Positions 8,269-61,654 of a DNA stretch of 64,000 nucleotides are shown piece by piece. Within the stretch, counting starts at the first letter, position 1. Each line of letters begins with the position of its first letter. The stretch comes from Cyanidioschyzon merolae. Its lineage: Eukaryota. The notes under the pieces are model-generated. The model had not been told where the DNA came from. It saw nothing but the letters and a program-made list of their open reading frames with translations, and did not search any database. The position numbers and the translations under genes were made by a program. The stretch is taken from the NCBI GenBank assembly GCA_000091205.1, contig AP006496.2; one strand, 5' to 3'.

Positions 8269-9718
8269 ACAAATCATGTCGCCTTTGGTACACCAGCACT
8301 GACACCATAGAAACTTTACGCCAACTCTCTCCAATCGATAGGCTCCATTCTCTTTGTCTTAGGCATGCGACAACCATGGATAAAGACGAAACCTGACCTG
8401 CTGGTACAGTTGGTACAAAATTCGCTGCTCGGATTATATCGATGATGCGCTGTGTGCCGAGGACAAGGTGCGCGGACATTACCGGCTGCCGCTGTGGTCA
8501 CTGCAAGCACCCGCTCATAGCTATGCACCCGCTCGAGTCAAGCATGTGTGGTTCACGCGTCATCGCTTAGGAACGAATATTTCATCGTCGCTGCATTATA
8601 TCGCAGGAGATCGATATCACGATGCAACTGACCGTATAGATCGTAGACGAATTGACTCCAGGATATATTCTTTACTGAATAGTTCAAGGAGGATTGCGTC
8701 CCTTTTTCAGATCAGTCATGCCATAGGACGCAGATGATTGAGGAACACTGTAAGGAACCAGTATATGCGATCTGCGTCAAAAACCGATATTTTTAAAGAC
8801 TGCTTGCCGTTTATGCTAGAAAACTTCCGATTGATCAAACTACGGAAAGCAAAACTGACGATCAGAGCCATCCCGGGCGTCACTGTTTCTCAACAGATCA
8901 ATTGTATGGTCCTGGAAACAGTAGGATAGTCTCAAGAGTCATAATTCACGCACGGCCATCTTCCATGGAGATCGCAATGTCGACGTTCCTCGAACGTCGC
9001 GATCTTCATCAAGCAGAGTGACGTCAGTCTGTTTTTCAGTTGATGCGACATCCTCCGGACGAAAAGGTTGGAGTATACATGAGTATTCGTGGAGCTGGGA
9101 ACCCGTTGTATGTACGATCGAACTCGAAGAGAACGAGGACGTCATCCATTCTTGCTGCAATCGATCCATTTGGCTGTCTCAGATTCGCTTGTGGAGAAGG
9201 CTGAAAGAAAAGCACCTGCTTCGTCTACTACTTGGAAACTTTTCTCCTGACATCTGGTGACGCCATCCTATTGGACAGTGTCGAATTTCGCCATCCGCTT
9301 TCCGTTCGAGCATTTGCCGATTCTATCGGGGAACGAGCTGTCTTTCATTCCTCAGTGTGCTGCGTGGTTCATCCCCATCAGAGGAATGTTTTTGATCATG
9401 AAACGCAGTGATCGCTCCACTGGGTGAATCGCTGAAGCGTTCAGCACACGCTGGCACAACGGAGCACATAAAATCTTCCTTCTGCATGTGCGTCTGTCTC
9501 TGGGAAGGTCAGCACCTAAGGGCATAAACAAGGGCGTTCGTTTGAATACATTAAAAAATCCAGGGAAAGTTATGGACTCGGAAGTCCGAGATGTTTGAGG
9601 CCCGGTGTTGCCAGCTGCCGGATAAAAAACGGAAAGAATCCTTTTCTCGACAAACATCAAGCGAACAAGAGTATGTGACGAAGAAGAAAAAGAAAAGAGG
9701 GGACACAGCACAGCAAAG

Positions 9719-10006
9719 ATGTTTGGCCGACGGGATAGTGACGATCCTGTTATGTCACAGAGGACACGAGTTCGAGGAATCCTTGCTTTGGTGAGTTCCA
9801 CCAGCGGCAATAAACGCATGAAGTTCGTGAACCGAGAATTCAACGTCACCATCAGGATCAGACGATCTGCGGTGCTAAACACGGGGACCGAGGACCCCGG
9901 GCGATTTAACTTCATGGGGCAGCCTCTCAGACTCGACTTGTACCCAGATAATTCGAAATCGATAGCAGACGGCCGGTCCAGGAAAAGCTGGGAGACGTCG
10001 GTGTAA
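9719..10006 (+). pseudogene. C-terminal fragment of a TnpB/Fanzor-like nuclease gene, divergent from copies A and B
   Basis: RTRVRGILALVSSTSGNKRMKFVNREFNVTIRIRRSAVL...FMGQPLRLDLY aligns with B RRAKVRGLLALMSTTNDSKKRMEFVNHDLNAAINIKRCAVL...FIGQPLKVKLY. The stop codon TAA sits inside a GTAAGT hexamer. There is no upstream N-terminal part. Confidence 0.6.
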
Positions 10007-10027: not shown

Positions 10028-10650
10028 AGGAACAGAAACTAACCATTCACTATCAACTCGATAACAATTTCTTCCCTGCTCTACCGTACACGTTTACAAG
10101 GGGAAAAGATTTCCGTATTTTCGAAAGCTTTCCTTCTAAGCGGAAGGTCCCGCGAGCCGGACGAGTCTGATGGGCTCGTGCTCCGTGCACCTCTGAAGTG
10201 CCCGGTGCTATAGTGAGGCCTGAACAGCTCCTCCGCAACGCACTATATTCTGGGACCAGGAGCAGGTAGGATGCATCCAGGTGTCGCCATAATCACAGAG
10301 GTCTCCGGGAATATCGCTTCGCGCTGTCGCAGGAAGTAGGCCTGTCTGCGCAGTTTGCAGACCCCCAGAATGCTGACAAGTCTGAATTCCGTATCGGATG
10401 AACCAAGCATCAAACCGACGCCCTGAGTGGTATGGCAAAGCCGTTCTGTCTCCGTGCAGCATCTGCTTCAACGGCATACGCGCGATTGCGGATGCAGCAA
10501 GACAGGTACCCGGCGCACGATCGAGCGTACATAACGACCGGTACATCCGAGAGGAACTATGGATCAGGGAACTTGCAAGTAGGTTGCAGCATGAAGGATG
10601 CTTTCTCGGTAACCAATATCCATCCCACAATCTGCGATCCATGGTCCAAG
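10028..10650 (+). repeat. Conserved ~620-nt non-coding unit, copy 1 of 3. It corresponds to the left end and leader of Fanzor-like element B and is a candidate structured RNA or regulatory module.
   Basis: Collinear DNA similarity to 21828-22450 and 54858-55460 with indels. Shared blocks are gaacaga[ag]a[ct][ct]aac, aa[ag]gg[ag]aaa...tt[ct]ccg, cccgcgagcc[ag]gacgagt, gcagttaa[ag]ctgc[ag]tctgggcgtcg, ggctcccagaatg and tgcatc[cg]gcatcagcgg. Reading frames are not conserved across copies (the 22-kb copy has stops), and a stem such as gcgagcc...ggctcgc is retained with changes. Confidence 0.6.
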
Positions 10651-11019
10651 GGATCATTCTACCGAATAACAACAAAATCGTGCGCAGGTCGCCGACGGCG
10701 CCCGCGCCTCTACCAGCCACAGACGTATGCGCTTTGCGTAGGCTCTTTGCTGGAGGCCTGTCGCTCAACACTGCACGTGCTGCTTTTCCCTCTGTGTGTG
10801 ATGCGGAAACGACGCAGCAGTTTAGGTTTCGTTGAGAATGTCTGCCTTGTGTCGGGCGTCGGGAGCGTCACGCGCTGGAGCGCTCGCGCTTCATCCCAGC
10901 GTGCCACCTCGGAAGCGCTGGTGTTTCGTCAGCCACGTGTTAGGGTTACTCGGCAACCGTCGAGGCGCTTGCGGCACCCTTTGGATGGCACTGGTGCGGG
11001 ACTGCGGGGCGCACAGCAC

Positions 11020-16711: not shown

Positions 16712-17039
16712 ACCATCGGAGGTGTATGCAACCCCAACAAACAGCTATCGTTCACTGCAAGTCCATCGGCTGACGTTTGGCGTCACACGAGCGCTCGAGT
16801 CTGACGCTCGTGATACCACACGCGCATACGCAAGTCCGCACGCCCAGCCTTTCCTCTTCAATGGACAGCGTCCGCACAGGCGCACGTTTTCTGCCGCCTG
16901 CGCTGGCGCAGTTGCGCGCACGCAATCTGAAACGGTATGCACCTCTCCATTTACGCACCATCATGAATCTATAGTACTATGAATATACATAAATATATCA
17001 TTAGGTATCTATATGCCACCACAGCAGCACGTTCGGATT

Positions 17040-17230
17040 TTTTCGCTGACAAAACGTTTACTTCGGCCAGCGTTCTCCGATTAAGCGCATTTGTTTCTTA
17101 CTTTTTTTGTGGTTTTTTTCAGTGGGCGGTAAGGTGTCCATCAAACCCCCGACCTCCAAGTTACATTGCCGATACCTCTTCTCGGATATTCCGGTCGTTT
17201 CATACGTCCCATCGGGTGTGCCTAGTGCCT
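17040..17230 (+). repeat. ~150-190-nt conserved non-coding motif, copy 1 of 2 (second copy 28440-28620), containing a polypyrimidine tract followed by CAG, 6 nt, then GGTAAG
   Basis: ggccagcgttctccgattaagcgc...tttttttcagtgggcggtaaggtgtccatcaaacccccgacctccaag here, versus ggccagcgtcctccgattgtgcgc...ttttttttcagcgcgcggttaagcatccatcaaaccccctacttccaaa at 28.5 kb. Confidence 0.5.
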
Positions 17231-17905
17231 GCCGTTCCGTATCCGCCTTTGGACCTTAAATGCTAGAGCAGATAGTTCATAGAGCTAGAACAGCTTTTCT
17301 ATACCCGAGAGGACGTCGGCTCGAGGCGTGCTTCACCCAACGTAGAATCGGGTCTCGTCGTCAGTTTGTGCTCGGACAGTCTGCGGATGCAGGCTTGCCT
17401 TCGCTGCACGACACGCTGGAGAAACTTGGCTGTTAGGATGAATGCTGGGAGCCGCCTCTCTCCTTCGTGATCATGCATGGAATGCGTTGTTGTCGGTTGG
17501 CAATGCGGGTTTGTGCTTGACACCCACCACAGTGGGTAGGCGCAGAAAGCGCACTGGCCCCGTATGCGTATCCGATTCGCTGGACCTTGCGCCCAGAAGG
17601 TACCCTTGATGCCGATGCGCGTCGCGCACATTAGCATAAGCGCATAACCTGGACAATCCGACACCATCCACCATGCAAGCTGCGGAAGGCAGTTTGGTGG
17701 CGCCATTCGTGCCAGAGGCGCTGCTGCGCTTTCGGTTGCGCGCGCTGGCCATCGAGGTAGCGCGAATGCTCGCCAAAGTGCGCGCACAGCTCGCGCAACG
17801 GAATCCTGTGTGGGGTGTAGCGAATTCTCCCCCCCAGGTACCGCTACGCTGCTGCACTGAGGTCGACTCCAAAAGGGTGCCTGTTGGAGGCGTGAACCGC
17901 CATCA

Positions 17906-18541: not shown

Positions 18542-19286
18542 TGTCACTTCTTTGCACAGTCACATAAAGGCCGCCAATGGTGCCCCTTCATGTTTATGAT
18601 GTAGAAGGCTTGCTGTGCGCCATGCAGCGCAGGAGGCTGCTTCGTTCCGCTGCGCACTCTGGTGCGTGCTCGCTACCGAACGCTTGCATGCATCTCCATA
18701 GCGGGGCGCAGTCGCACGTCTCCACAGAGCCATTCCGGACATGATCGTCTTGAATGGTTTGTGTGTTGGAATACAACCCGTGGTGAAGCGTGATGCCGGC
18801 GAGGGTGACGCTTACCACGAAAACACCTCCTGCGACCAGTCGTCTTGCGGGCAGCTCCAGCCAGCGCTTTCCTGACAGTAACTGTCTTCCGAGCAAACTC
18901 GCGTACGTCATATAATTCTGCAGACACGTCCCCGTTTCACGGAAGGGAAAATCTCGAGGAGCAAAGCGGAGCCGCCCGCACGCCCACACACACACATCTA
19001 TGATAGGGACGAGAACGGATCACCCAGCACTTGTGTGACGAACAGTGCTCCGTGTCGCGTTCTGTTTCCGTGCACGAAAGGCTTGCTTTCAGCGCTACTT
19101 GTCGTAATTAAGGACCGGCCAGACCGTTGGAGCAGTGTCCGGTGCAGTAGACCGCGTACCTGAAAGCCACAAAAGGCGCACAGGGCAGAGCGCCGTACTG
19201 CGTCCAGCTCGCGAAACCGGTCGCTTCTTTCGGGCGATGGGCGCGGTCGCCTGCTGCTGGTCCGTGGTATCGCCGACACAAGGAGC

Positions 19287-21815
19287 GCCTTAAAAGTCGA
19301 ACGTCGCCGGCGGCCGTGTACAGTAGTGGCGAGAAACCCGCCCTAGATAAAACGTCTTCAGCTGACGTGCAGACGCCTCCCAGCTTTTTTGGACAGGCTA
19401 CCTACTACTGCCTCCAACTTTTTCTCATACAGCTCCACTTTGAATGATTGCGCAACAAAGTTCTCTCGTGTCAACTCTGGAGGTCTTCTTTCCACCACGG
19501 CACATCTCCTTATATTGATAGCGGCGTTAAAGTCACGATTCACAAACTCCATACGTTTCTTGCCATCTTTGTTTGTACACAGTAATGCGAGTAGTCCACG
19601 AGCTTTCGCCCTGCTTTCCATTTGCTCCTCCGTCAACGCTCCGTACTTTTTTACATCCTCAGGGCTTCACTGGTACTTTTCCATCTCCACTCTCTGAAGC
19701 GTACAACCCACTTCATGGTGTGTATACGACGTCCGGAACTCATCTACAGGTATCGTAACGAGATGCCTTTCACACACCTTGTGCGTTCTTGTAGCTGGAG
19801 CTAGCCTAGTCCCTTTTTCCCACGCCTACCGCCCTGCCCAATACGCTTCTACTAGCCTCTGACTGTCGCTCTCCTTCAAGGCGCTCAACTCATTGAAAAA
19901 ACTCGTGAACGCACGCTGCCTCCCACCGTGTAGATTCATACACAACCGAGCCCACCGGGGCTTTGTATACTCCTCCTACAGCGCCTCGCAATGAGCAACA
20001 CGAACTTCCATAAACTCCCGGAAAGCGTGAAAGTCCGCTCCCCGGCCCGTCACCTGGCTGATCGCTTCCAGGTGCTCTTTCAATCCTGCGTTCCACGCCC
20101 CACTTTTCTTCCTTTATTCATTACACTGAATTCTCGGTAATATCTCGTTCTTGAAAGCTTTAAAACACGCATGTGTTTTTGACGTAGGTTGCCGTCGATG
20201 CCATCATCCCCGCAATTGCGTGTTGTGATGGTCATGATATTCGTGTTCCCAGGGCCCGCGCCAACGACAAAGTGGTTCTCATGCACCTCCTGCTTCGTGG
20301 GGCTAGCCTCTTTGTTTTCTTCACGCTTTGCCAGCGACGGCAACGAAGACAGAACTGGACGATCCGCCTTCAAGCGCCGATAATGTACACGCATGGCTAT
20401 CGCATCACTTTCGATCATCCCAGTAAAGTCCTTTTTCTTGCTCGTTCTGAGACGTTTGGAATCGAAGATATTCTTCTTCCAGTACGTCTCCTGGTTTTCA
20501 CCGGTGAACTCCTTGTTGCTTACATCGAACACTGGACAGATCTCCGTAATGATGCCGTAAGGGATTTCGGAGTCGATACTCACAAAATGTGACTTGATGT
20601 TGCACAACGGAACGACGTTGAAGCGCTTCTCCAGAAGCGCAGCTTTCCGTTTCTCCGTCACTGCATTTGCTTCAACACCCTGCTCCATATCGGTCTTGCA
20701 TTTCAGTTGTCGGTTCAGGAATATGGTATAGCGCAAGATGAGGCGATCGTATCTTTCCGAATCTTTTTTCAACTCTGATATCTTTTCTGCTGGACTCGCC
20801 AGCCCCAAGACCACACGATGCTCTTTAATAGCTGCACGGATTACAGAATCCTCATTTGCTCTCCTGCGTGATGTCTTCTCGTGAACAAATTCGATCTACT
20901 GTTCATTCTTACTATCGTTTGTGATGCCATCGATGATGGTCCATATCCCTTTGCGAGAGGGGCCCGGGTAGCGCGTACAGACGGCGCGTATCATGAAACG
21001 TTCCAGGTTCATGGTCAAATAGTTCTTCAGGTTCGTGAGGTGCTTCATAACCCCGACGGTGTAAATACGCGAGTCACCCCTGTCTCGAGTACCGTTGAAG
21101 CGGAATTCGGCGTAATTTTCGTGGAGGGCATGCACCCGCTCATTTCTCCTCGACGTTTCCCCTGTACCAAGCATCAGGTGACGAATAAAGGTTTTGCCGA
21201 AAAATTCTTCCAGAACCTCGACTGTTTTGATGCCCGTTGCGTCGTCGCGCATCTCCTTCACCAAATGCATTATACCTGCAGAAGCCATCATAACACTCAT
21301 GGAGTCTGACTCGATACGGTTTCTGATGGCCTCTCGCAGCTTTCGCCGGGACGGATCCTTGATATGTGCGAGAAGACAGGTTTTCACCACCATCTGGTCG
21401 TACTGTCGTGTTTCGTTCAGCTTCTGACCTCGGGCCTCCCTCTTTTGCTCCATCGTCTTCTCATGTTCCTTTTAGCTCCGCCATGTTTTTCCTTAGTCTC
21501 CGGCAGTCGACGACACCAGATGTCCAGGATCCTCCAGTTTCTTTTCCACAACTTTTTCATTATTTTTGAAGAAGAAGAAGGCTCTTTCAACGCTTCTGAT
21601 ATGAATCGCTAAAATTGATTTGAATACACTAACTTGAGGTTTGAAACACAATTGCATTAAACAACTTTAATTTGTTACGACTTTAACGCAAATACAACTT
21701 GTACGGTAGAACAATAAGAAAACGGATTTTCACAATTTCGCGTTTCCTTTCAACGGCGACACGTGCGTCTTGTCTCGTACGACCTGATCTCCCCGGCGCG
21801 CTAACCGACCGCAGC
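19287..21815 (-). mobile_element. TnpB/Fanzor-like element copy A (pseudogene). Its 5' leader is truncated where element B begins, and it has an in-frame TAG, an internal deletion and frameshifts.
   Basis: ORF pieces 20896-21453, 20080-20814 and 19358-19636 on the minus strand are collinear with copy B at about 55-65% amino-acid identity ([17 protein letters not shown]; KRMEFVNRDFNAAINIRRCAVVERRPP...KVELYEKKLEAVVGS). The manual translation around 19985 reads VRVAHCEAL*EEYTKPR where B has VRVAHWDSLWEEYTKPR. The 3' tail after the stop codon matches B's tail (tcgccactactgtac...cttttaagg). Confidence 0.75.
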
Positions 21816-21827
21816 ATACAGAGCAAA

Positions 21828-22450
21828 GAACAGAGACTAACCATTAACTAGCAACGATATACCAATTTATCTTCCCTGCACGATAAACGATAAAAAGGAA
21901 ACACGATTCCCGTTTTGTCGAAAGTTGAATTTCTCGACGGAAAAACCCGCGAGCCAGACGAGTACCCCAGGCACGTGCTTCGTGCTCGCCTCCCAGTGGC
22001 GGGTGCTGCACTGAAATCTGAGCAATTCGTCTGCAGCACTGTTTATTCTGGTACTAGCGGCAGTTAAACTGCATCTGGGCGTCGATCCGGTCGCGGTGGA
22101 GTCCTAGTATAGAGCTTCACGCTATCGCAGGCAGTGTGTCTGTCTGCGGAGCTTGCTGGCTCCCAGAATGATCCTATACTCCAACTCTGTGTCAGGTGGA
22201 GCATTCCTCGATCCGACGCCCTCAGTAGTACGGCAACGCTGCTCTGTATCTGTGATGCATCGGCATCAGCGGATTAGACGCTAAGGCGGGTGCATCAACG
22301 CATGCACCCGGCGAATGACAGGAAGCACGAGACGAGTAGTACATCTGAAAGGAAGTATACGTAATGGAATCTGGAGTTAGAATGCAGCATGATGGACGCT
22401 TTCGCTGAATCCGATACCCATTTATAGCACAATCTGGGATCCATTGTCAA
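21828..22450 (+). repeat. Conserved ~620-nt non-coding unit, copy 2 of 3; this copy is the left end of Fanzor-like element B
   Basis: See 10028-10650. Copy A (minus strand) is collinear with B only from about 22215 onward and lacks 22340-22450. Confidence 0.6.
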
Positions 22451-22802
22451 TATAAGTGTTTTTCCATCGGAAAAATGAAGCGTGTAGCTCTAACGTACAA
22501 ATTGTAACGATGTTCAAGTCGTAGAAAAATACATTGTTTGTCCTCAATCGTGTTTCAACCTTCACTCTAGTGTATTCAAGTGCTTTTTCGTGCGTAATAG
22601 CTGTCCCATCCAAAGTGGTTTCGGTTTTTATATTGAAAAAGGAAAGTTACGGAAGTGGAAGTGTAGGATCCTGGGCGTCAATGTCGCCGGCAGCCCGAAA
22701 AAACGAAGAACAGTGCCAAGTGCAAAGGAACAGGATAAGAAGAAGAAGTAAAAGTGGAAGGCCCTACGTCAAAGGCTACACAAAAGACGACGGTACGACG
22801 AG

Positions 22803-24838
22803 ATGGCGGTGAAAGCCTGTCTTCTTCAACATACCAAGGATCCGTACAGGGAAAACGTTCGAGAGGCAATATGGAACCGTGTCGAGCCGAACTCCAGCGG
22901 TGTTCGTGATGCTTCTCAAGGAATGTTGCATTTCCTAAGAAAATGGTATCATGACGTTACGGACATCAAAACAGTCGATATTCTGGGTGAATTTTTCAAC
23001 AAAACCTTTATTCATCACTTTATGCTTGGCACCGGGGAAACGTCTAGGTGAAATGAGCGAGTTCATGCCCTCCACAAAATTTACGCCGAGTTCCGCTTCG
23101 ACGGTACTCGATACAGGGGGGATTGGGATATTTACATCTACGGGGCGATGAAGTACCTCACCAGTCTAAAGAACCATTTAACAATGAACCTCAAAAGCTT
23201 CATGATACGCTCCATCTTTGCACTCTACCCCGGTCTCACTCGTCAGGGGATATGGGCGATTGTCAATGGCAACACGAACGATCGCAAGCATGAAGATGAG
23301 ATTGAATTCATCGACGAGAAGAAATCACTCAGGAGCATGAATGAGGATTCCGTCATCCGAGCGGCTATACAAGAGCATCGTACGGTACTGGGGTTGGCGA
23401 ACCGAGCAGCAAAGATATCAGAGTTGAAAAAAGATAACGAAAGATACTATCGCCTCGTCCTGCGTTACTTTGTGTTTCTGGGCCGTGAGCTCGAACGCAA
23501 GGCAGAGATGAAGCTGAGTGAGGAAAAAATGAAGAGCGGGGGAAACGAAAGGCTGCGCTTCTGGGTAAGCGCTTCAACGTCGTTCCGTTGTCCAACATCA
23601 AGTCACGTTTTGTGACTATCGATTCCAGAATCCTTTACGGCATCATGAAAGACTTCAGCCCCGAGTTTAATGTCAGCAGGAAGGAGAGTACCGGTGAAAA
23701 CCGGGAGACGTACTGGAAGAATATGTTTGATTTCACACGTCTGAAAGTGGGCAAACAAAAGGTATTCACAGGGGTGATCGAAACCGATGGAGTAGCCATG
23801 TGTATTCACTATCGGCGCTTGAAGGCGGATCGTCCAGTTCCGTCTTCGATAGTGTCCGTGACGAAGCATGAAGATGAGAAGGAGGCGGATTGTGCCACAC
23901 AGAAAGTGCAGGATAACAACTTTGTCGTTGGCGCGGACCCTGGGATTACGAATATCGTAACCATCGCTGCTCCCAAGCGTGCGGAAGATGGTAACGACGG
24001 TAACACACGTCAGAAAGGCATGCGTCTGTTGAGGTTCTCGAGAGCGAGATACCACCGAGGATCCGGCGTAATGAATGCAAGGAAGAAAATCATTACATGG
24101 AATTCAGGAATGAAAGAGCACCTGGAAGCTTTGAGCGAGGTGACGAGCCGAGGAGCGGACTTTAACGCTTTTCGGGAGATTATGGAAGTTCGCGTTGCTC
24201 ATTGGGATTCGCTGTGGGAGGAGTATACAAAGCCTCGACGGGCTCGTCTGCTTATGAACCTGTATTGTGGGAAGCGGCTTGCATTCGCCAACTTTTTCAG
24301 TCAGTTGAGCGCCTTGAAGGAGGATGAAAGTCAGAGGCTCGTAGTAGCATACCGAGCAGGGCGCTGGGCGTCGAAAAAAGGAACTACGCCAACTCCAACG
24401 ACAAGAACGTACAAGGAGTGCGCACGGCGCTTCGCTACGATACCTGTAGATGAGTTCCGAACATCCTATACAAACCATGAACTGGGGTGCACGCCTCAGA
24501 CGGTCGAGATGGAGAAGTGTCAGCGAAGCCCTGAGGATATACAAAAGTACGGACCGCTGACGGAAGAGCATATGGGAAGGAGGGCGAAAGTTCGAGGGCT
24601 ACTTGCACTAATGAGTACAACCAATGATAGTAAGAAACGTATGGAGTTTGTGAATCATGACTTAAATGCCGCGATCAATATCAAGAGATGTGCGGTGCTG
24701 GAGAAGAGACCTCCAAACTGGACAAGAATGAACTTTATTGGACAACCTCTCAAAGTCAAACTATATGAGAAGAAGTTGGAAGCAGTAGTAGGCGGCCGGT
24801 CCAAGAAAACTGCGAGGCGTCTGTACGTAAGTTGGTGA
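22803..24838 (+). pseudogene. TnpB/Fanzor-like RuvC nuclease ORF of element B. It is nearly intact, with one in-frame TGA (23049-23051) and one 14-nt tandem duplication (23562-23575) that shifts the frame.
   Basis: N-terminus MAVKACLLQHTKDPYRENVREAIWNRVEP..., RuvC-I-like [31 protein letters not shown], and RuvC-III-like KRMEFVNHDLNAAINIKRCAVLEKRPP. Where A has TSRRNERVH, B has TSR*NERVH. Deleting tgggtaagcgcttc restores the frame (ERLRF|NVVPL, matching A EKRFNVVPL). Confidence 0.75.
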
Positions 24839-24905
24839 TGTCTAGTCTGGGGCGCGGCGATCGCCACTACTGTACCACTGGCGACAGCGTTTTTCTTTTG
24901 AAAGG
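24839..24905 (+). other. Right-end tail of element B: conserved hairpin-like segment followed by a T-run. It is a candidate terminal omega-RNA scaffold and/or terminator.
   Basis: gtaagttggtgatgtctagtctggggcgcggcgatcgccactactgtaccactggcgacagcgtttttcttttgaaagg. The matching tail of copy A runs from tctagggcgggtttctcgccactactgtacacggccgccggcgacg to ttcgacttttaagg. The two sequences diverge immediately after this point. Confidence 0.45.
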
Positions 24906-24944
24906 CGTTGGTTTCCAGGGGCGCGCGCTACAGCAACGCCTCTG

Positions 24945-28439: not shown

Positions 28440-28620
28440 TTTTTCCCATTGCCAAGACGCGTACCAAGGCCAGCGTCCTCCGATTGTGCGCTTTTGCTTT
28501 TTTCTTTTTCTTTTCATTTTTTTTCAGCGCGCGGTTAAGCATCCATCAAACCCCCTACTTCCAAACTCCGTAACCCATACTACTCCTCGGATACACTGAT
28601 CGCTTCATAGGCTGTATCGT
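28440..28620 (+). repeat. Copy 2 of the ~150-190-nt conserved motif (see 17040-17230). It lies 40-200 nt upstream of the SppA start codon on the opposite strand.
   Basis: Direct similarity to 17040-17230. Confidence 0.5.
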
Positions 28621-29089
28621 TCGCTGAGCGCATGCCGCAAGCGTCCCTTGTGGAGCTTGTACCGTTGGCACGAATGCATCTCAATGACAGAACGGCTTTG
28701 CCGTACTAATGAGGACGCCGCCTCGGTGCTTGGTTTATCCAACATGGAATCGGGATTCACTATCATTACGAGAGCCTGCAAGCTGCGCAGACAGACCTAC
28801 TGCCTGCAACAGCGCGAAGAGATTTACCAGGATAATCCTGCGAACACGGGCGACTCCTAGACGCAGCGCACCAGCTCCTAGTCCCGAACTGAACTGCGTT
28901 GCGGGCGAGCTGCTCAAGTCTCGCCATTGCACCCACCACTTGGTGGAGCATGAAGTTTCAGCGCGGCGGAGTCGTCTGGCTCGCGGGACGCCCCGACTAA
29001 AAGGTGAACTTTCGACCATGCGAAACAATTTTGCCAGCTTCAACACGTACCGTCGAGGCAAATATTCGTATATCGTTGCTAGGTAGCGT

Positions 29090-30040
29090 TCGTTTCCGTG
29101 ATTATTTTCTACAGCGCAGTCGATACGCACACCATCATATTTGGGAGATGACATTGACGGCAGCCTGCGCCACAATGAGATGCGTCTTTTGAAGTTCTCG
29201 AGAGCTGCATATTGCCGACAGTCGGAGATAATGAAGCCCAAGAAATACTGCACCCTGCAACGCTGAACAGAAGGAGTACCTGGACGCGATGAGCAAAGTC
29301 GCGTCGCGCGGAGCGGACTTTCGAGCTTTTCTCGAATTCACGGAAACTCAAGCTGCTCATGCCGAGGAGCTGTGGAAAGAGAGTATCCAAAGCCCCGGTG
29401 GGCTCGTCAGCGCATGAACCTTCGCAGAGGGAAGAAGCGGGTACGCGGCATGTTCATGAATCAGTTGAGCGCCCTCAAGCAGGACAAGAGTCAAAGGCTC
29501 GTAATTGGATACGCAGCAGGGCGCCGGGTGTCCAAAAAGCTAGCGTACCAGCTCCATCGACAAGAGCGCGCAAGGAGTGCACACACCGTTTCATCGCAAT
29601 ACCGACAGATGAGTTCTGAACGTCCTACGTGCACCAGGGGCTGTGGTATACGCTTCTGGAGGTCGAGATGGAAAAGTGCCAGCGGAGGGCTGAGCATATA
29701 CAAAAGTGCGGAGACCTGACGGTGCAGGAAATGGCACGAAGGGCGCGAGTTCGAGTACTCCTCGCTCTAGTGGGTTCAAGCAGCGGCAACAAACACATGC
29801 AGATCGTGAATCGAGACTTTAACGCCGCTTTCAATATCAGGTGATGTGCGGTACTGGAGAAGAGATTCGAGGGGTTGACACGATCCAATTTTGTGCCACA
29901 AACTCTCCGAGTCCAACTGTAAAACGAGAACTTGAAACCAATAACAGGCGGCCGGTCGATAGAGACGGAGCGGCGTCAGCACGTCGGTACATAGGTACCC
30001 GCGCGATCATCGTACCGTATTCAAACGCGATCCCCAGAAG
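29090..30040 (+). pseudogene. 3' fragment of a TnpB/Fanzor-like element of the A/B subfamily, with multiple frameshifts and stops
   Basis: MRCVF*SSRE aligns with [63 protein letters not shown] and KHMQIVNRDFNAAFNIR align with B ALSEVTSRGADFNAFREI, SQLSALKEDESQRLVVAYRAGR, RFATIPVDEF and KRMEFVNHDLNAAINIK. The tail ggcggccggtc...cgcgcgatcatcgtaccg is similar to B's right end. Confidence 0.6.
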
Positions 30041-30346
30041 CAGCGCGCAATCGCAACCGCAGCTGTGCACTGCATCGGTGCGCGCGGAGGCGGCGGCGCG
30101 ATGCGTGAATCTGCTGCGGGCGTACGCTCGTCTGCCGGAGGCATCCAGCGCCTCCAGGTGACACTTCAGGGCTGGTAACGTCTTCGAAAAGCCAGAGCAA
30201 GGGATAGCTGTGTGTACCGAAGCACCGCCATAGATTGCTAAAGTCTTTTGCGGTACTTGTTTTTAGCACCTGGCTCGAGTCCCGGGCGCTCGTCGGGGCC
30301 ACTGTAGTTCGTGCGCGCGCGCGTTTCCGGAGTAACCAGTACTGCG

Positions 30347-41925: not shown

Positions 41926-42279
41926 TGATATAGCGACTGCATACGCGATCTGCGTAGGCAGCGATGCCCTGATGCCCCTGTCCGTAAAGATCCTAAATAT
42001 CGAAGATCTAAACACACCCCTGAGGCTCTGCAGCACAGGCCAGCGGGAGAACGTGTACTCCGGTGCGCGCGGAGACTGCCAGCCAGCTGGACGCAGCGTT
42101 GTTCGCGTCCCTTAGCTGAGCACGACTAGCGGGGCTCAAAGGTCCCCTTTTCTGACGCAAGCGCTTGGGGTTGTTGCTCTGGCACCAGTGCGCATAAGGC
42201 CCTGTGCGAAGCAAGCAACACTGTTGAAGGGCGAGCAGCGAACGACGACGCATACGCGACGGTTTCGCTCAAGATACTC

Positions 42280-52798: not shown

Positions 52799-54857
52799 GT
52801 TGCAGGCGAAAGGAGAGAAGCGAACCGATCCGCCCCGGGAATTTGAATCCGCGCAGCGCGATCGCTCGCCAGCGGCGGTATGATGGCGGCCTCATTCGCG
52901 TGCATGATAGGATGTACCACAACGGCCAGTATACCCGGGAGGGAGTATGGGTTATGGAGCTTGGACCTAGGTGTAACGATGGGTGCTTTACCGTACACCG
53001 ATATGAAACGTGCAATCGGTGAGCGCTGGTCTGCGCGTAAACGTTTCGTCAAAGAAGATAATCGGGTGGTTTCGTTCGCCTGTGTCTATGGTCATCGATG
53101 CTGTTGACACCGCAATATACGGAGCGCCGGAGGAAAGCATCGCAGCATATCAAAACTCTTGGATGGGCTAACTGGATCCCGGCATTTCCACTGAGATTCC
53201 CAGAATACGACGCTCGGACAAGGCGGAAGAACGCGGTGCGTCGCGCGTTCGTGCTCGTTTCAGGAGCGCATGATGCATAAACTCCATTTCGAAAAAACGT
53301 ACGCTGCGACCCGCATAGGTCCGTAGGTTCTGTGCGGAATTCAAGCTTTCATTCACGTTCTATCACAATACAGTTGAAACTGCGCCCAGCCGCGGTCTCG
53401 AAGCAGCCATCAATGCTGTTTGCGCGCACCATCTCGGGGCAAGCCTTGCTGGATGTGCGTTTTCAGCATGTTTCGAGGCGTCTCGCGCGACAGCGGCCAT
53501 GCTTTCGTGTGCAGGAGCGCTTCCATCTATCGCGCGGGTTGCCGGTCTTAGAAGGACGCGCATTGCGTTGCGGAGGCATGCCATCGGCTTGTCCAGACAT
53601 GCCTCGGGAACGAGACGCTCGTCGTGCACAGTATCGCTGCCGCCGTGCAGAGGTGACCCTGTTCATTAGCGGTGTCACCATGGCTCTGGGGCCGAATACC
53701 GGATGCAGCACTTTCCTCCATCTATCCATCCGAACGTCCGTCCGACCATTGATCTGCTGCCTTGTGTGCCAGTAGATGTAGACGACGTACGTAGACCAGC
53801 GAGCCGCTTGCTGCAGATCTATATCCTGGTGTCTGGTTCTATGGATGCGGAACGTCGCCAAGCTGTCCGGATCGGTCACGGAATCCGCCAAAGCCTACGT
53901 CGTGCGCCCCGAACATGCTCGTCTCTGTTCAACGGTACAGAAGCGGGATGTCCCGGGTCGTTACCTAGAGACATGATGCGTGTTCGGAGCGCATCATTCC
54001 CTGATCCGAGGTCCCTGTCAGACGCGTCTGCGATTCACATTCACCGGAAGAAGCCATCATCCATGTCACAAGGCTCACGATTGTACTCCATTATGGAATC
54101 GAAGCTCGTCGCTTCCGAGACTCGCAAACGAGGGATTGTACTGCGCGTCAAGCTTCCAGCTTACGGCAAATGTCATTATTCATTGGAGACCCAGCGAGGC
54201 AGGCCCACAAACCTATGTTACCTGGACGCCAACTCGCGACGCTGTCGTCTCGATGCACGCCTTGTAACGTCCTGGGATTTCAGGCGCACACACGAGAGAT
54301 ACCCGACTGCCCGCGTGCATCATCCGATACGGAGCGCGCACCAGCTGAGCGTTTTGATGAATTATGTCCAAAGGCTGTAGTTTATTTCCCACGAATACAG
54401 TGAGACAAGAGAGCGTAACAAAAGAGGAATCATGCGTTGTGCTCTCGATCTCCCTATCATTCAGAGCCGAGGAACGCTACGAGGTGTCCTCATGTCCGTG
54501 ATCATTTCGGGGCGGGAAAGCGAGGATGAATCACGACCGGATCCTCCGAATGCGCGAAAACCGTCAATTGCCTGTTGATGAAACTTTCTCGATGATGCGT
54601 CAACTGTGGGGTCGCGGGAAACGGGGTATACCTCGAGGCGACACTTCGTGGGGCACGGCGAATCTGTTTTGGACCTTTAGGGCATCGGCACGGTCGCATG
54701 GTGGATCAATTTGTTTATTCTTATCTGGGGAGGTGTTCTGGAGTCGCTCGTACGCGACAGCGTCTCTAGTGGAACAGAAATCTTGTTCTGGCTACGGGCA
54801 GCTTACACTGCTGTCAGAAGCATCTGATTTCATGCATGGATCCCTACGATGCGAAAA

Positions 54858-55460
54858 AGAACAGAGATCAACGAGTGATTAGCAACTCGAGAACAGCTTC
54901 TTCCCGGCTTCACGGTGAGCGTTGAAAGGGAAAAAAGTTTTCCGTAATTTCGAAAGTGTATCGTGTTGGTGGAATTTGGCGCGAACCGGATGAGTCCGTC
55001 AGGCCAGAGCTCGCTGTGCCTCTAAGGTGCCGGGCCAGTAGCGAGTTCTGAGCAGCTCGTCCGCAACGCAGTTTATTCTGCGACTAGGGGCAGTTAAGCT
55101 GCGTCTGGGCGTCGCCCATGTTGCAATTATCTCCTAGCATATCGCTTCGCTCTGTCGCAGGCGGCAGGTCTGCTTACCCATTTTTCAGGCTCCCAGAATG
55201 CTTACATAATCCGATTCCGTACCTGGTGAAGCGGCCCGCAATCCGATGCCCTCAGCAGTATGGCAAAGCGTTCTTGTCCCCGTGCTGCATCCGCATCAGC
55301 GGTTTAGGCGCAATCGCGGATGCAGCAAGACAGGCACTCGCAACACAATGGAACATTCAAAACGGCAAGTGCATCCAGGCAGAGGCAAGGGCCATGGAAC
55401 TTGGACGTAGAGTGCATCATGGTGGACGCTTTCCCGAATACCAGTTTCCAATCCGCAGGC
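54858..55460 (+). repeat. Conserved ~600-nt non-coding unit, copy 3 of 3 (solo; no adjacent nuclease ORF)
   Basis: See 10028-10650. It ends about 250 nt upstream of the eIF4E ATG on the same strand. Confidence 0.6.
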
Positions 55461-55708
55461 GAGGATCCCCGATCAACAGAAACGTTTTATCAAACGAAGA
55501 AAAAGATGCGTTGCACGTCGATACCCGAAAAGGGGCATCGCACGCCTGATGATGCAGCGTCGGCGCCGCCGCTGCCGCCGCTGCCGCCACTGCCCCAAAC
55601 GTACACCCATCCCAGCAAGGTGTCTAGTGACACCTGCTTCGTTTACGAAACAGCAATAGCACCGTTTGCGCTGGCACCGCACTCTAGAGACCGTACGTTG
55701 CTCCGGCT

Positions 55709-56326: not shown

Positions 56327-58300
56327 AACCTTGGCGCTGGGAGCGAGCTGTGGTGCGACTGCCAGCACCAACGGGTACGCGTGCGACACCTGGACTCGGC
56401 TTTGGAAACGATCACCGCACGCTGCGTGTAACGTCGTCGGCAAAGCCGTTTTCCCTGCGTCTAGCATGAGCCGGCGAAACGGAAATCGGGCACCGGTGTA
56501 GCGGGTCCAGGAAACGAACCCAACGACAGCATCCGGGGCAGCGGAGGCGGCTTCCACTGGCCAGTCGCGTCGTGAAAGCACTCTGCCGGTGCTGGACGCG
56601 GGAACGGGCATTGCAGCTCGATATCAACGCACGTTGAAACACATGTGCCGATATGCTGCTGGTGCGACTCGGAATGTGCGTTTCCATTCTGGTGCGGCAG
56701 CAAGATCCCTGTAAGAGGCGTAAGTTTGGCGAAGCGCCTTTCGTGACCGCTTCTCTCTGCTTTACGGTGCGGCTTTCGTCGCAAATGGGGTCCAACGGAA
56801 TCAGAGATCAAAAAGAGGCTCGGTTTGCACCAGAGTGTTTCGCCAGCACTTTCGGACGATGAAAATCTCTGAGCGCTGCGGATATTGGCAGCAAAGCCTT
56901 CACTGATGGGAGCGTTTCGGTGGCGCTTCGAGAGTATTTGCATGATTGCGTGCGCTGTTTTGGTGTATCGTGATTGTTTCAAGTCATTTCAAAAGCTATC
57001 CGGATTCTGACTTGAGCTGTACACATGCTTTACTAAATGTGAGCCTCGGTTCCACTGGCCAGTACCGACTGTAAGACTTGGAGTAACCTGCTTTGCGCCT
57101 TGTGAAGAAAACTGTAAACGCCCATCCAGCTCGTCTTGAAGAGCGAACGCGCACGCCTTTGTTGCGTTTCATGCACGCCCCAGCGCGTACTGGAAGCGCC
57201 CGAGACACAGCGCAGTCGTGCCGAGTTTATGTCCAGAGCTGGCATCTAACCTATGTACACTGCTAGGCATGAGACGCGATCGCGTTCCAGACGGAAGCGA
57301 GTGCATTCGAATCGGTCCCTGTTCATGATGCGGTTCGGCGCCCAAGCACAAAGTGCGACGCGCATTGATGGACGCTCACCACAACCAGGGCGCCACGGCT
57401 TTCCCTCGTTGCTGTCGCAAGATGCCGCATGTTATCCCGTCAGCAAGCGAGCCGGGCATCCAAACTTCTTCGCGCACCCGTCTCCATCCCATAAATAAGG
57501 ACTTGCTGCTTACGAAGATCTACACCCTCGATAGTACACTGCATAGGAAACATATGGCAGCTTCGCGTGGCCTTGCGCGGTGCCAACACGCGCACATGAC
57601 GTGTGGAAACGATGGACCGCAACGCCAGGGCGCAGATGCGAACAGCCTCGAGTCGATGCCCATACAGGTAAGACGACGCTGTGCAGTCATCATGTGGCGC
57701 TGGCGCCGGCCTTGCTGGCGCCGTCGTGGGCGCTCACCGCAGGCACTAGGCACCCGGAGGATCGCATGAATGCGCATGTAATTCCGAAGGCAGGCACATC
57801 CACTGCTGACCGATGGAACTCGAACGTGTCGCGCGGCATGGAAGACGCTCTCCCCGATACCGATAGCAATCGCGCTATCGGGCACGTCAGGTTCGTTGAA
57901 CGATTCTGTAGCCAAAAAGGGGTGATAAGCACAACGGGTCGAGCACGCACACATTCCCGTTCTTCCATCGTATTGAATGCGTTCCTGAGTGCCGCCACGC
58001 TGCGCAGACCTGCCCTCATGACCCTGAAACAACAATATCATGGATAAGCTGTCGATCCTCGATGAGTCCGTGAGGCAGCGTGCAGCGAGGCGCCTCCGAC
58101 GGACCCCGTCCAGGCGCGAAACTGCGGCACGCGCAACGTCCGTTCGCTGCTCAGCGTGTCGCCTGCCGGGAGCCTCTCTGCAGACAGGGCCTATCGCGGC
58201 CATTCACGGGATCATCCCGAGTTCCAGATGCCCGCCAGCAGTACCGAGAGGGTTTCCATTCATGACTGAACAGAAGGGGCATCGGAGGTGGCGGCAGGCC

Positions 58301-61285: not shown

Positions 61286-61654
61286 GGTACAGAAGGTACT
61301 GCTCTAAATGGAAAAGATGTCGGCCCGGAGCTGTGCACTCGTGTCGCGAAGCAGCAGAGCGCGAACTGGTGAGTCATGGGTCAGCGTTGCCACGCATCCA
61401 GCAGCTTACACACATAAAGCCACCTTCATTTCTGTGGGTAATATCGAAGGAGACCCCCCAGTGCCTTGACACTACCGTCATAGCAACACAGAACAAGTCT
61501 ATCTACCAAATCGAATCTAAACCCTAAAGGTAGAGTCTTTTGCCATGACCATCAATACCAGCTTCCACGTGCTTTTTCCGCAACTGACTCCATCCTGACT
61601 CAGTTACCTCAGGGTCTGAGTAGGTTAGTCTCCCCGGTCCCTCCGATACTGTCG

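What the first reader, a model, noticed from the sequence alone, without database searches (positions are those of the whole stretch)
21828..22450. Conserved ~620-nt non-coding unit in three copies (10028-10650, 21828-22450, 54858-55460), left end of the Fanzor-like element: candidate structured RNA or mobile promoter module
The three copies are collinear at the DNA level with many substitutions and indels, but retain the same ordered sequence blocks. None retains a common reading frame: the 22-kb copy has stops where the others are open. Several blocks form inverted pairs whose partners change between copies (for example gcgagcc...ggctcgc versus cgagcc...ggctcg), the pattern expected for an RNA under structural constraint. 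In element B this unit is the left end immediately 5' of the nuclease leader. At 10.0 kb it follows a Fanzor C-terminal fragment by only about 20 nt. At 54.9 kb it is solo. All three copies are in the plus orientation and end 250-370 nt upstream of a plus-strand start codon (RUS, Fanzor B, eIF4E). It could be the element's own promoter or regulatory RNA, an omega-RNA-like guide scaffold encoded at an unusual 5' location, or a left end that has been co-opted as a host promoter module.
Basis: partly seen in the sequence, partly recalled or inferred. Interest (0 to 1): 0.75.

Follow-up and report, generated by a model that had tools for sequence, protein, structure and literature searches.

The report
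Known retroposon sharing a LINE tail
The repeated ~650-nt non-coding unit is a catalogued repeat of the red alga Cyanidioschyzon merolae (TE-N2_CMe, the 5' module of the Fanzor1 element CMe-1A); about 550 nt of it matches the 3' end of this genome's reverse-transcriptase retrotransposon, so it is best read as a decaying LINE-dependent retroposon and not as a guide RNA or a promoter module.

Summary
The repeat is real and larger than reported. The window (C. merolae 10D) holds four full copies, one LINE-type copy and two fragments, and I collected 26 distinct full copies species-wide. It is already published: Bao & Jurka 2013 call it TE-N2_CMe, identical to the 5' 635 bp of the ~3-kb Fanzor1 element CMe-1A, and Nozaki 2007 describe the 3.2-kb, 253-copy element.

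New here: from TACCTTCTAGG to its A-rich end (~550 nt), the unit is collinear and co-terminal with the 3' end of five independent RT-encoding retrotransposon copies. Only a 108-nt head is unit-specific. Truncated copies keep the 3' end 19:2. The unit is non-coding.

Three covariation tests are negative: among copies, between subfamilies, and unit versus LINE tail. Polymorphism looks neutral. In composites the unit lies head-to-head with, and antisense to, the Fanzor gene; unit B belongs to the minus-strand Fanzor A', not Fanzor B. Intact Fanzor genes exist without it, and they carry their own conserved 3' tail with compensatory changes, which is the canonical omega-RNA position. Closeness to host gene starts is family-wide and explained by residence in divergent intergenic regions.

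Verdict: a known, ordinary mobile element, with a probably unreported LINE relationship.

The parts
10030..10672 (+). Unit copy A (TE-N2 type). Head 10030-10129, LINE-derived tail 10130-10672. 81% identical to the 26-copy consensus. The annotated CDS BAM81171.1 starts inside it, at 10432.
9680..9988 (+). Fanzor1 C-terminal fragment (about aa 504-582 plus the first part of the 3' tail), fused upstream of copy A on the same strand. The same chimeric junction occurs in L075.
17038..17607 (-). Copy E: a 5'-truncated 3' end of the non-LTR retrotransposon. 93.4% identical to the LINE-tail consensus, against 68.6% to the unit tail. It has no unit head.
19283..21819 (-). Fanzor1 core A' (degenerate ORF 21135->19457, 680-nt leader, 3' tail 19543->19283). 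Its 5' end abuts the 5' end of unit B, and the two together make one CMe-1A composite.
21820..22475 (+). Unit copy B (the stretch named in the finding). Head 21820-21926, tail 21927-22475. Paired head-to-head with Fanzor A'.
22487..24925 (+). Fanzor1 core B, 5'-truncated at about -575 relative to the ORF. ORF homology 23061-24742 with frameshifts. Conserved 3' tail to about 24912-24925. It abuts the 3' end of unit B.
28440..29110 (-). Unit copy D (TE-N2 head plus a tail carrying the LINE-like A-rich insertion). Head-to-head with the Fanzor fragment at 29120. Its 3' end lies 145 nt upstream of the SppA start codon.
29120..30045 (+). Fanzor1 fragment (aa ~322 to the end, plus the 3' tail), joined to unit D through an internal deletion of the leader and N-terminal part.
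54854..55504 (+). Unit copy C, solo. Head/tail boundary at 54959. About 205 nt upstream of eIF4E. Present in all 10 related strain contigs (99.2-99.5% identical).
52854..53066 (+). 5'-truncated unit fragment (consensus positions 447-656) that keeps the 3' end.
57645..57918 (+). 5'-truncated unit fragment (consensus positions 385-649) that keeps the 3' end.

Best explanation
The unit is a copy of TE-N2_CMe, a ~650-nt non-coding, non-autonomous retroposon of Cyanidioschyzon merolae. It has two parts:
- a 108-nt head of unknown origin (AAAGAACAGAGACTAAC...TTTTCGAAAGTT);
- a ~545-nt tail that is homologous to, and ends at the same A-rich terminus as, the 3' end of the genome's RT-encoding non-LTR retrotransposon.

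Inferred mechanism: a unit transcript is recognised through its LINE-like 3' end by the retrotransposon's reverse transcriptase and copied into new sites by target-primed reverse transcription. That would account for the defined 3' end, the frequent 5' truncation, the chimeras, the lack of terminal inverted repeats and the lack of any ORF.

One ancestral copy became joined 5'-end to 5'-end with a Fanzor1 gene module, so both 3' ends face outward. This is the geometry expected from twin priming, but that origin is inferred. The ~3.2-kb composite (CMe-1A) then amplified.

The copies in this window are old (19-24% from the consensus), and copy C is fixed in all sampled strains. They evolve neutrally and are relics rather than working parts.

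Shown: identity with the published family by description; homology and shared terminus with the LINE; non-coding status; architecture; truncation bias; absence of covariation.
Inferred: mobilisation by the LINE enzyme; the twin-priming origin; how the composite spreads.
For: - Source and literature. The window is C. merolae 10D. Bao & Jurka 2013 describe a 635-bp TE-N2_CMe (~70 copies) that equals the 5' end of the ~3-kb Fanzor1 element CMe-1A (~150 copies, ~80% identical to the consensus, no TIRs, class unknown). Nozaki 2007 describe 253 copies of a 3.2-kb transcribed element. My measurements match: 26 distinct full copies, 60-85% identical to the consensus (most 72-85%; the 60% copy is LINE-type E); 12 of 26 abut a Fanzor core.
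- LINE link. In five independent RT loci with different host neighbours (L049, L096, L098, L100, L101), unit profile positions 136-684 follow the RVT_1 domain on the same strand. LINE-to-LINE homology (89-90%) runs continuously to the unit's 3' terminus and stops there.
- Tail identity. The tail consensus sequences are 67% identical. Window copy E is 93% identical to the LINE tail.
- Head. It is unit-specific and never found separately: all 98 hits fall inside units.
- Truncation. Of 49 distinct copies, 26 are full, 19 are 5'-truncated with the 3' end kept, and 2 are 3'-truncated (p = 2e-4).
- Non-coding.
- 3' end. It is A-rich, with an A-run of variable length.
- Chimera. A same-strand Fanzor-fragment-plus-unit chimera has an identical junction at two loci.
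- Neutral decay. No covariation, a star-shaped tree, and polymorphism of 14.6 per kb against a locus mean of 17.1 and 4.9 in eIF4E.
Against: - Target-site duplications are only marginal: 4 of 11 solo copies against 13.6% in controls (p = 0.05), and no signal in the unconstrained test.
- The A-run is often followed by TCGAT(GA), which can pair with the preceding TCATCGA. So the terminus is a hairpin with an A-rich loop rather than a plain poly(A) tail.
- The head has no tRNA-, 5S- or 7SL-like signature (Rfam gives no hit at E <= 1), so the unit is not a canonical SINE.
- No endonuclease domain was found in the fragmentary LINE copies. The 'non-LTR' label rests on Nozaki 2007.
- The Fanzor core's own 3' end has no similarity to the LINE tail, yet 5'-truncated Fanzor copies that keep that end are common. 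How the composite and the unit-less cores move is therefore unexplained.
- I could not compare directly with the Repbase consensus.
- All extra copies come from metagenome contigs that are ~99% identical to 10D where tested, not from the finished genome.
Confidence: 0.8

Rival explanations
1. The unit encodes a structured RNA that works with the Fanzor nuclease. It would be an omega-RNA-like guide scaffold transcribed outward from the left end of the composite, with its 3' end reading into flanking DNA to supply a guide.
For: - The ancestral consensus folds far better than shuffles: plus strand z = -7.3 with 20 shuffles and -5.0 with 150; independent half-sets give -4.5 and -4.7; the genomic background is +1.1 to -1.9.
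- The plus strand has an advantage of 10-28 kcal/mol, and 26 of 214 consensus pairs are G.U.
- In the composite the unit's 3' end is the outer boundary, so a read-through transcript would carry flank sequence at its 3' end.
- Jiang 2023 note conserved non-coding sequence on the 5' side of some Fanzor ORFs.
Against: - No covariation among 26 copies, between subfamilies (0 compensatory doubles; single changes keep versus break pairing 13:13), or between unit and LINE tails (z = -0.75; 12 compensatory pairs against 11.2 expected).
- Intact Fanzor ORFs occur without any unit (L003/L011, L006, L010).
- The canonical position, the 3' end of the ORF running to the element end, holds a better-conserved tail (83% against 68% column identity) with a long-range stem and compensatory changes.
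- All experimentally defined Fanzor guide RNAs come from the 3' end next to the right end.
- The unit shares nothing with that tail.
- Most of the unit is a retrotransposon 3' end.
- A scaffold of ~650 nt would be several times longer than known ones.
Confidence: 0.04
2. The unit is a mobile promoter or regulatory module. It drives the Fanzor gene, or has been co-opted to drive the host genes just downstream of it (RUS-family gene, SppA, eIF4E and others).
For: - In 18 of 22 scorable copies the unit's 3' end faces a same-strand host ORF. In about 13 of them the gap is only 100-330 nt, while the 5' side is usually 1-2 kb from the next gene.
- Copy C is fixed in all sampled strains.
- The family is reported as transcribed (Nozaki 2007).
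- The junction with the Fanzor leader forms a divergent arrangement that could share control elements.
Against: - Region types are 9 divergent, 5 tandem and 2 convergent, and in tandem regions the orientation is 3 same to 2 opposite. The bias therefore reflects residence in 5' intergenic regions, where either orientation faces a gene start.
- The Fanzor core's 3' end also lies 13-435 nt upstream of same-strand host ORFs in 8 of the 10 same-strand cases among 17 scorable, so closeness to genes is family-wide in this compact genome.
- Intact Fanzor genes lack the unit.
- Polymorphism in unit C is at the locus average, three times that of eIF4E.
- No expression or 5'-end data could be examined. 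The only promoter scanner available is bacterial and does not apply.
Confidence: 0.1
3. The unit is the left-end cis module of a DNA transposon that carries Fanzor: a 'ghost' or MITE-like non-autonomous derivative, or a hairpin-ended single-strand or rolling-circle element, mobilised by a DNA transposase.
For: - Bao & Jurka treat CMe-1A and TE-N2 as transposable elements of unknown class.
- There are hairpins at the unit's 3' end (TCATCGA-A(n)-TCGATGA), at the core's 5' end (GCGCTC-GGT-GAGCGC) and near the core's 3' end.
- TSDs are not clear.
- The self-complementarity shows on both strands, as expected of DNA-level palindromes.
- Fanzor1 genes are usually found in DNA transposons, and ORF-less ghost loci exist elsewhere.
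Against: - About 545 of 650 nt are the sense-strand 3' end of an RT-encoding element and share its terminus.
- There is a strong excess of 5' truncation (19:2).
- No terminal inverted repeats can be seen by reading the ends.
- The unit shares neither end nor the omega-RNA region with the Fanzor core, which is the defining feature of ghost loci.
- No transposase was seen in any locus.
Confidence: 0.06

Closest known systems
TE-N2_CMe, and the 5' 635 bp of CMe-1A (Repbase; Bao & Jurka 2013, Mob DNA 4:12). Also the '3.2-kb novel interspersed repetitive element' of Nozaki et al. 2007.
   Same: Same organism, length (~635-650 nt) and non-coding nature. The unit occurs both alone and as the 5' module of a ~3-kb Fanzor1 (WSV486-like) element. 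Copies are ~80% identical to the consensus and have no terminal inverted repeats. The composite is 0.65 + 2.55 = 3.2 kb.
   Different: Nothing observed differs. I could not align to the Repbase consensus itself. The papers leave the class 'unknown', do not mention the retrotransposon relationship, and do not say that the module is antisense to the Fanzor gene.
LINE-dependent non-autonomous retroposons that share their partner LINE's 3' end (SINEs with LINE-derived tails; RIME/ingi-type derivatives).
   Same: A 3' region homologous to, and ending at the same point as, an RT-encoding element of the same genome. No ORF, a defined 5' end, an A-rich terminus, 5'-truncated copies, chimeras, and higher copy number than the autonomous partner (about 70-250 against 26).
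   Different: The shared tail is very long (~545 nt, against tens of nt in most SINEs). The head is not tRNA-, 5S- or 7SL-like. TSDs are not demonstrable. The head is not known to derive from the LINE 5' end, so it is not shown to be a simple internal-deletion derivative.
Fanzor/TnpB omega-RNA (fRNA) and ORF-less 'ghost' loci (Saito 2023; Jiang 2023).
   Same: A non-coding, foldable sequence physically linked to a Fanzor gene that also occurs without the gene in many copies.
   Different: Omega-RNAs and ghosts lie at, or share, the 3' right end of the nuclease locus on the sense strand and have scaffolds of about 75-300 nt. The unit is upstream, antisense, ~650 nt, unrelated in sequence to the Fanzor 3' tail, dispensable for intact Fanzor genes, and derived from a retrotransposon.
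L1 twin-priming inversions and template-switch chimeric retrocopies.
   Same: The composite joins two segments 5'-end to 5'-end with both 3' ends outward. A second form joins a Fanzor mRNA fragment upstream of the unit on the same strand. Both geometries are classic by-products of target-primed reverse transcription.
   Different: Here the two arms are different RNAs (a Fanzor module and the unit). The product then amplified to more than 100 copies. The resemblance rests on geometry only, and no mechanism was tested.

Membership tests
TE-N2_CMe / 5' module of CMe-1A (Bao & Jurka 2013) | A ~635-bp non-coding repeat of C. merolae, present both alone and as the 5' end of a ~3-kb Fanzor1 element. 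| tested here: met
   The organism was identified. Copies are 643-656 nt. 12 of 26 copies abut the Fanzor core 5' end, and the others are solo or chimeric. Unit plus core comes to about 3.2 kb.
TE-N2_CMe / 5' module of CMe-1A (Bao & Jurka 2013) | [quoted passage not shown] | tested here: met
   72-85% identity for 25 of 26 copies. The 5' end (AAAGAACAGAGACT) and the 3' end (GTCATCGAAAAAAA) are not complementary, as seen by reading.
TE-N2_CMe / 5' module of CMe-1A (Bao & Jurka 2013) | Sequence identity to the Repbase consensus. | not testable with these tools
   Repbase is not available here. The assignment rests on the published description.
LINE-dependent non-autonomous retroposon (SINE-like) | A 3' region homologous to, and ending at the same point as, an RT-encoding non-LTR element of the same genome. 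| tested here: met
   Five independent RVT_1 loci end in unit profile positions 136-684. Homology stops at the shared terminus. Consensus identity is 67%.
LINE-dependent non-autonomous retroposon (SINE-like) | No coding capacity, and a defined 5' end distinct from the LINE. | tested here: met
   Stops in all frames of the consensus. 26 full copies start at the same head. The head is absent from LINE copies and never found alone.
LINE-dependent non-autonomous retroposon (SINE-like) | 5'-truncated copies that retain the 3' end. | tested here: met
   19 5'-truncated against 2 3'-truncated among 49 distinct copies, p = 2e-4.
LINE-dependent non-autonomous retroposon (SINE-like) | Variable-length target-site duplications flanking insertions. 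| tested here: inconclusive
   4 of 11 solo copies have an abutting repeat of at least 6 nt, against 13.6% in controls (p = 0.05). The unconstrained test gives no excess. The copies are old.
LINE-dependent non-autonomous retroposon (SINE-like) | Canonical SINE head derived from tRNA, 5S or 7SL with a Pol III promoter. | tested here: not met
   No Rfam match at E <= 1 on the best-preserved copy, and none at gathering score in the window. It is therefore SINE-like, not a canonical SINE.
LINE-dependent non-autonomous retroposon (SINE-like) | RT-dependent mobilisation. | not testable with these tools
   This needs a retrotransposition assay or young polymorphic insertions.
Fanzor/TnpB omega-RNA (guide RNA scaffold) | Encoded at or overlapping the 3' end of the nuclease ORF on the sense strand and reaching the element's right end. 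| tested here: not met
   The unit lies upstream of the 680-nt leader and antisense to the ORF. The 3' position is occupied by a different conserved tail.
Fanzor/TnpB omega-RNA (guide RNA scaffold) | A conserved secondary structure supported by compensatory change. | tested here: not met
   Searches are negative for the unit. By contrast, the Fanzor 3' tail keeps a stem with compensatory doubles.
Fanzor/TnpB omega-RNA (guide RNA scaffold) | Accompanies functional nuclease genes. | tested here: not met
   The intact 586-593-aa ORFs in L011 and L003 have no unit, and the Fanzor cores in L006 and L010 also lack one.
Ghost locus (ORF-less Fanzor element; Saito 2023) | Shares the terminal repeats and the omega-RNA region with the nuclease-bearing locus. 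| tested here: not met
   No similarity between the unit and the Fanzor 3' tail or leader (best hit 15 nt, E = 1.8; nhmmer finds nothing). Definition taken.
Fanzor1 (the associated protein) | RuvC-like motifs in order: D ... E/[TS][TS] ... RD. | tested here: met
   The family consensus shows GADPGNTN, VDEFRTS and NRDFNAAIN. The literature assigns CMe-1A to Fanzor1.
Fanzor1 (the associated protein) | Detectable homology or fold match to solved Fanzor/TnpB structures. | tested here: inconclusive
   No Pfam or PDB sequence hits. The AlphaFold model was unusable (pLDDT 36), so no fold search was run.

The most novel reading that the evidence does not exclude
The ~150-250-copy Fanzor1 family, about 5% of this genome, may have spread by retroposition and not by DNA transposition. 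A twin-priming-like event fused a Fanzor gene module head-to-head with a LINE-tail retroposon, and the composite was then copied by the LINE reverse transcriptase through the unit's LINE-like 3' end. That would be an RNA-guided nuclease gene hitch-hiking, in antisense, on a retroposon.

The unit's unusually high self-complementarity, gained after it split from the LINE tail, could then be an adaptation for RT recognition or transcript stability.
Probability: 0.25. Interest if true: 0.6.

Novelty: already known. Interest (0 to 1): 0.3.

Why it matters
As flagged, the finding is a published repeat family, so it does not reveal a new kind of RNA or regulatory element.

What this analysis adds is a classification that the 2013 description left open. 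Most of the module is the 3' end of the alga's own retrotransposon. That explains why the family has no inverted repeats, no clear duplications and no transposase.

If the link holds genome-wide, the most abundant repeat of one of the most compact eukaryotic genomes is a Fanzor gene welded to a retroposon. That bears on how Fanzor nucleases spread in eukaryotes; one survey already notes a LINE association for one Fanzor1 clade.

There is also a practical point for annotation: at least one GenBank protein (BAM81171.1) is annotated as starting inside a copy.

Tried and rejected
- Rfam at gathering score on the window, and at E <= 1 on the best copy: nothing.
- RNAalifold on 26 copies: almost no consensus structure.
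- SINE test against the first RT locus (L011): it failed only because that contig ends before the LINE 3' end. It was resolved with L049 and four more loci.
- Presence/absence polymorphism of copy C, to define the ends: all 10 strain contigs carry it.
- TSD searches: inconclusive.
- Young 1.9-kb repeat family as a guide to element ends: the boundaries are unequal and nested, so I abandoned it.
- Fanzor membership by sequence or structure: no Pfam or PDB hits, and the AlphaFold model was too poor for a fold search.
- Bacterial promoter/terminator scan: not applicable to a eukaryote.
- Idea that a long LINE abuts the Fanzor core head-to-head in L011: the alignment shows no homology at the junction, so I dropped it.
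- Endonuclease domain in LINE fragments: not found.
- The orientation bias toward host genes first looked like support for a promoter role. Region type and the same behaviour of Fanzor 3' ends explained it.
- The strand asymmetry of the fold shrank in subset consensus sequences, so I do not use it as evidence for a plus-strand RNA.
Full report
OBSERVATION
A self-comparison of the window also shows:
- a fourth copy on the minus strand near 28.4-29.1 kb;
- a 2.4-kb inverted duplication (19318-21710 versus 24875-22489, 76.6% identical) that brackets copy B;
- an unrelated young ~1.9-kb repeat in three copies.

A profile search adds a fifth copy at 17.0-17.6 kb (minus strand) and two fragments. 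After consensus mapping the extents are:

| Copy | Window coordinates | Strand |
|---|---|---|
| A | 10030-10672 | + |
| B | 21820-22475 | + |
| C | 54854-55504 | + |
| D | ~28440-29110 | - |
| E | 17038-17607 | - |
| fragment | 52854-53066 | + |
| fragment | 57645-57918 | + |

No reading frame is open in any copy or in the 26-copy consensus.

SOURCE AND PRIOR KNOWLEDGE
Exact protein look-ups place the window on the 852,727-bp chromosome of Cyanidioschyzon merolae 10D.
- Bao & Jurka 2013 report about 150 copies of a ~3-kb Fanzor1 element, CMe-1A. They state that its 5' 635 bp is 95% identical to a separate ~70-copy element, TE-N2_CMe. Both lack TIRs and are of unknown class.
- Nozaki et al. 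2007 had described the same thing as 253 copies of a transcribed 3.2-kb element with a WSV486-like ORF, making up about 5% of the genome.

The unit is therefore already catalogued. Its nature was not.

MORE COPIES
I fetched loci around Fanzor homologues. I also ran one metagenome scan with a unit-derived pattern, which gave 73 loci. The contigs come from hot-spring populations that are 99.2-99.5% identical to 10D where tested. Clustering gave 26 distinct full-length copies, and 49 distinct copies and fragments in all.
Caveat: the scan pattern makes the columns TCGAAAS and GCGARCCRGAYGAST look over-conserved.

ARCHITECTURE
All Fanzor elements share a core that runs from about 680 nt upstream of the ORF to about 100 nt past the stop codon. 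Context of the 26 copies:
- 12 have the core's 5' end abutting the unit's 5' end on the opposite strand, with a constant junction.
- 11 are solo.
- 2 follow a short Fanzor C-terminal fragment on the same strand, with an identical junction (window A and L075).
- 1 is convergent with a Fanzor 3' end.

Intact Fanzor ORFs in L003/L011 have no unit, and the Fanzor cores in L006 and L010 also lack one.

STRUCTURE TESTS
- The consensus folds unusually well. The plus strand gives -257 kcal/mol, with z = -7.3 (20 shuffles) and -5.0 (150 shuffles). The minus strand gives z about -2.5.
- The signal repeats in random half-sets of copies: plus -4.5 and -4.7, minus -3.0 and -3.8.
- It is an outlier against the genomic background (+1.1 to -1.9) and against the Fanzor leader (+1.1 and -0.3).
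- There is no evolutionary support:
  - RNAalifold finds almost nothing.
  - On 214 consensus pairs, paired cells, double-sided changes and the covariation score all equal their shuffled values.
  - Between the one younger subfamily and the rest, 61% of 54 differences fall in stems (59% of columns are paired), single changes keep versus break pairing 13:13, and there are no compensatory doubles.
- The Fanzor 3' tail behaves as a positive control. It has 83% column identity, a retained long-range stem, and compensatory doubles in L064 and L086. This is the canonical omega-RNA position.

THE RETROTRANSPOSON LINK
- In L049 a unit-like sequence lies downstream of an RVT_1 domain on the same strand, and it is 88% identical to window copy E.
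- Four further independent RT loci, next to different host genes, show the same thing. Homology between the RT elements (89-90%) is uninterrupted from the RT region to the unit's 3' terminus and stops there.
- The alignment shows units and LINE copies collinear from TACCTTCTAGGCGGAAGG to GTAAACGTTTTGTCAnnGnAAAAAA. Upstream of that point the LINE copies and the units differ.
- The tail consensus sequences are 67% identical. A conserved-structure test between them is negative: z = -0.75, with 12 compensatory pairs against 11.2 +/- 2.7 expected. The LINE tail itself folds much less well, -171 against -225 kcal/mol.
- Copy E is 93% identical to the LINE tail, so it is a 5'-truncated LINE. Copies A-D are TE-N2 type.
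- The 108-nt head never occurs apart from units and has no Rfam match.
- Truncated copies keep the 3' end 19:2.
- TSDs are marginal.

PROMOTER IDEA
- The unit's 3' end faces a same-strand host ORF in 18 of 22 scorable cases, often only 100-330 nt away.
- But 9 of 16 elements sit in divergent intergenic regions, and in tandem regions the orientation is 3:2.
- Fanzor 3' ends lie just as close to host starts.
- Unit C carries 14.6 variable sites per kb, against 17.1 for the locus and 4.9 for eIF4E.
- No expression data could be examined.

INTERPRETATION
The unit is TE-N2_CMe, a non-autonomous retroposon that shares about 545 nt and its terminus with the genome's non-LTR retrotransposon. Mobilisation by that element's reverse transcriptase is inferred from homology, the truncation bias, the A-rich end, the chimeras and the absence of TIRs or an ORF.

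The head-to-head composite with Fanzor has the geometry of a twin-priming product, and the same-strand chimera has the geometry of a template switch. Both origins are inferences.

Still unexplained:
- why the unit lineage became so self-complementary;
- where the head came from;
- how the composite and the unit-less Fanzor cores are copied.

COMPARISON WITH KNOWN SYSTEMS
- It matches the published TE-N2_CMe/CMe-1A description.
- It works like a LINE-dependent retroposon but is not a canonical SINE.
- It fails the defining features of omega-RNAs and of ghost loci.
- A LINE association for one Fanzor1 clade has been noted computationally. I found no paper that links TE-N2_CMe to a LINE.

VERDICT
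A real repeat, already known, mostly explained as a decaying retroposon. The structured-RNA, guide-RNA and promoter readings are not supported. Modest interest attaches to the apparently unreported LINE relationship and what it implies for the spread of this Fanzor family.

Noticed in passing
window 6531-8420, 39945-41933, 59294-61294: A young repeat family in three copies, 95-99% identical. Its minus strand has weak protein-level similarity (35-38% over ~90 aa) to the Fanzor C-terminus. The boundaries are unequal or nested. It may be a second, more recently active Fanzor-like family; Bao & Jurka list only one for this species.
   Followed up: partly
window 10432-12915 (+): GenBank protein BAM81171.1 (827 aa; RUS/UVB-sensitive family, Pfam domain from aa 328) is annotated as starting at 10432, inside unit copy A. 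Its first ~80 codons are therefore retroposon-tail sequence. Gene calls in related strains start 53-123 codons later. This is either a mis-annotated start or an exonised repeat.
   Followed up: partly
window 24780-24925 (+) and 19283-19420 (-); loci in alignment A4: The Fanzor core's 3' tail overlaps the stop codon and keeps a long-range stem (GTAGTAGGTGG / CGCCACTAC) plus small hairpins, with compensatory changes in L064 and L086. It is the likely omega-RNA scaffold of this Fanzor1 family.
   Followed up: partly
Fanzor ORF about +800 to +950 nt from the start (for example window ~23860-24010; L001, L010): A 75-nt (25-aa) tandem repeat inside the Fanzor ORF varies in copy number between elements.
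   Followed up: no
L006 5585-6790 (-) and 6890-7852 (+); window 19283-21819 (-) and 22487-24925 (+): Fanzor copies recur as head-to-head inverted pairs. In L006 both members are 5'-truncated. The arrangement recalls the unit/core junction.
   Followed up: no
unit profile positions 410-457 (for example window 57645; L004:6669-6889; L011:10101-10324): Eight of the 19 5'-truncated unit copies start within a ~50-nt zone. This suggests a preferred truncation point or an unrecognised short subfamily.
   Followed up: no
L004/L005 (L005:1959->1972), L011/L012 (L012:5999->6055), L006:5447->5421, L048:3648->3739: Fanzor element 3' ends lie only 13-91 nt upstream of the first ATG of long same-strand host ORFs. 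These genes' promoters or 5' UTRs must overlap the element, or the true start codons lie further downstream.
   Followed up: partly
window 48410-48646 versus 62113-61877: An inverted similarity of 238 nt at 67.6% identity, not examined.
   Followed up: no
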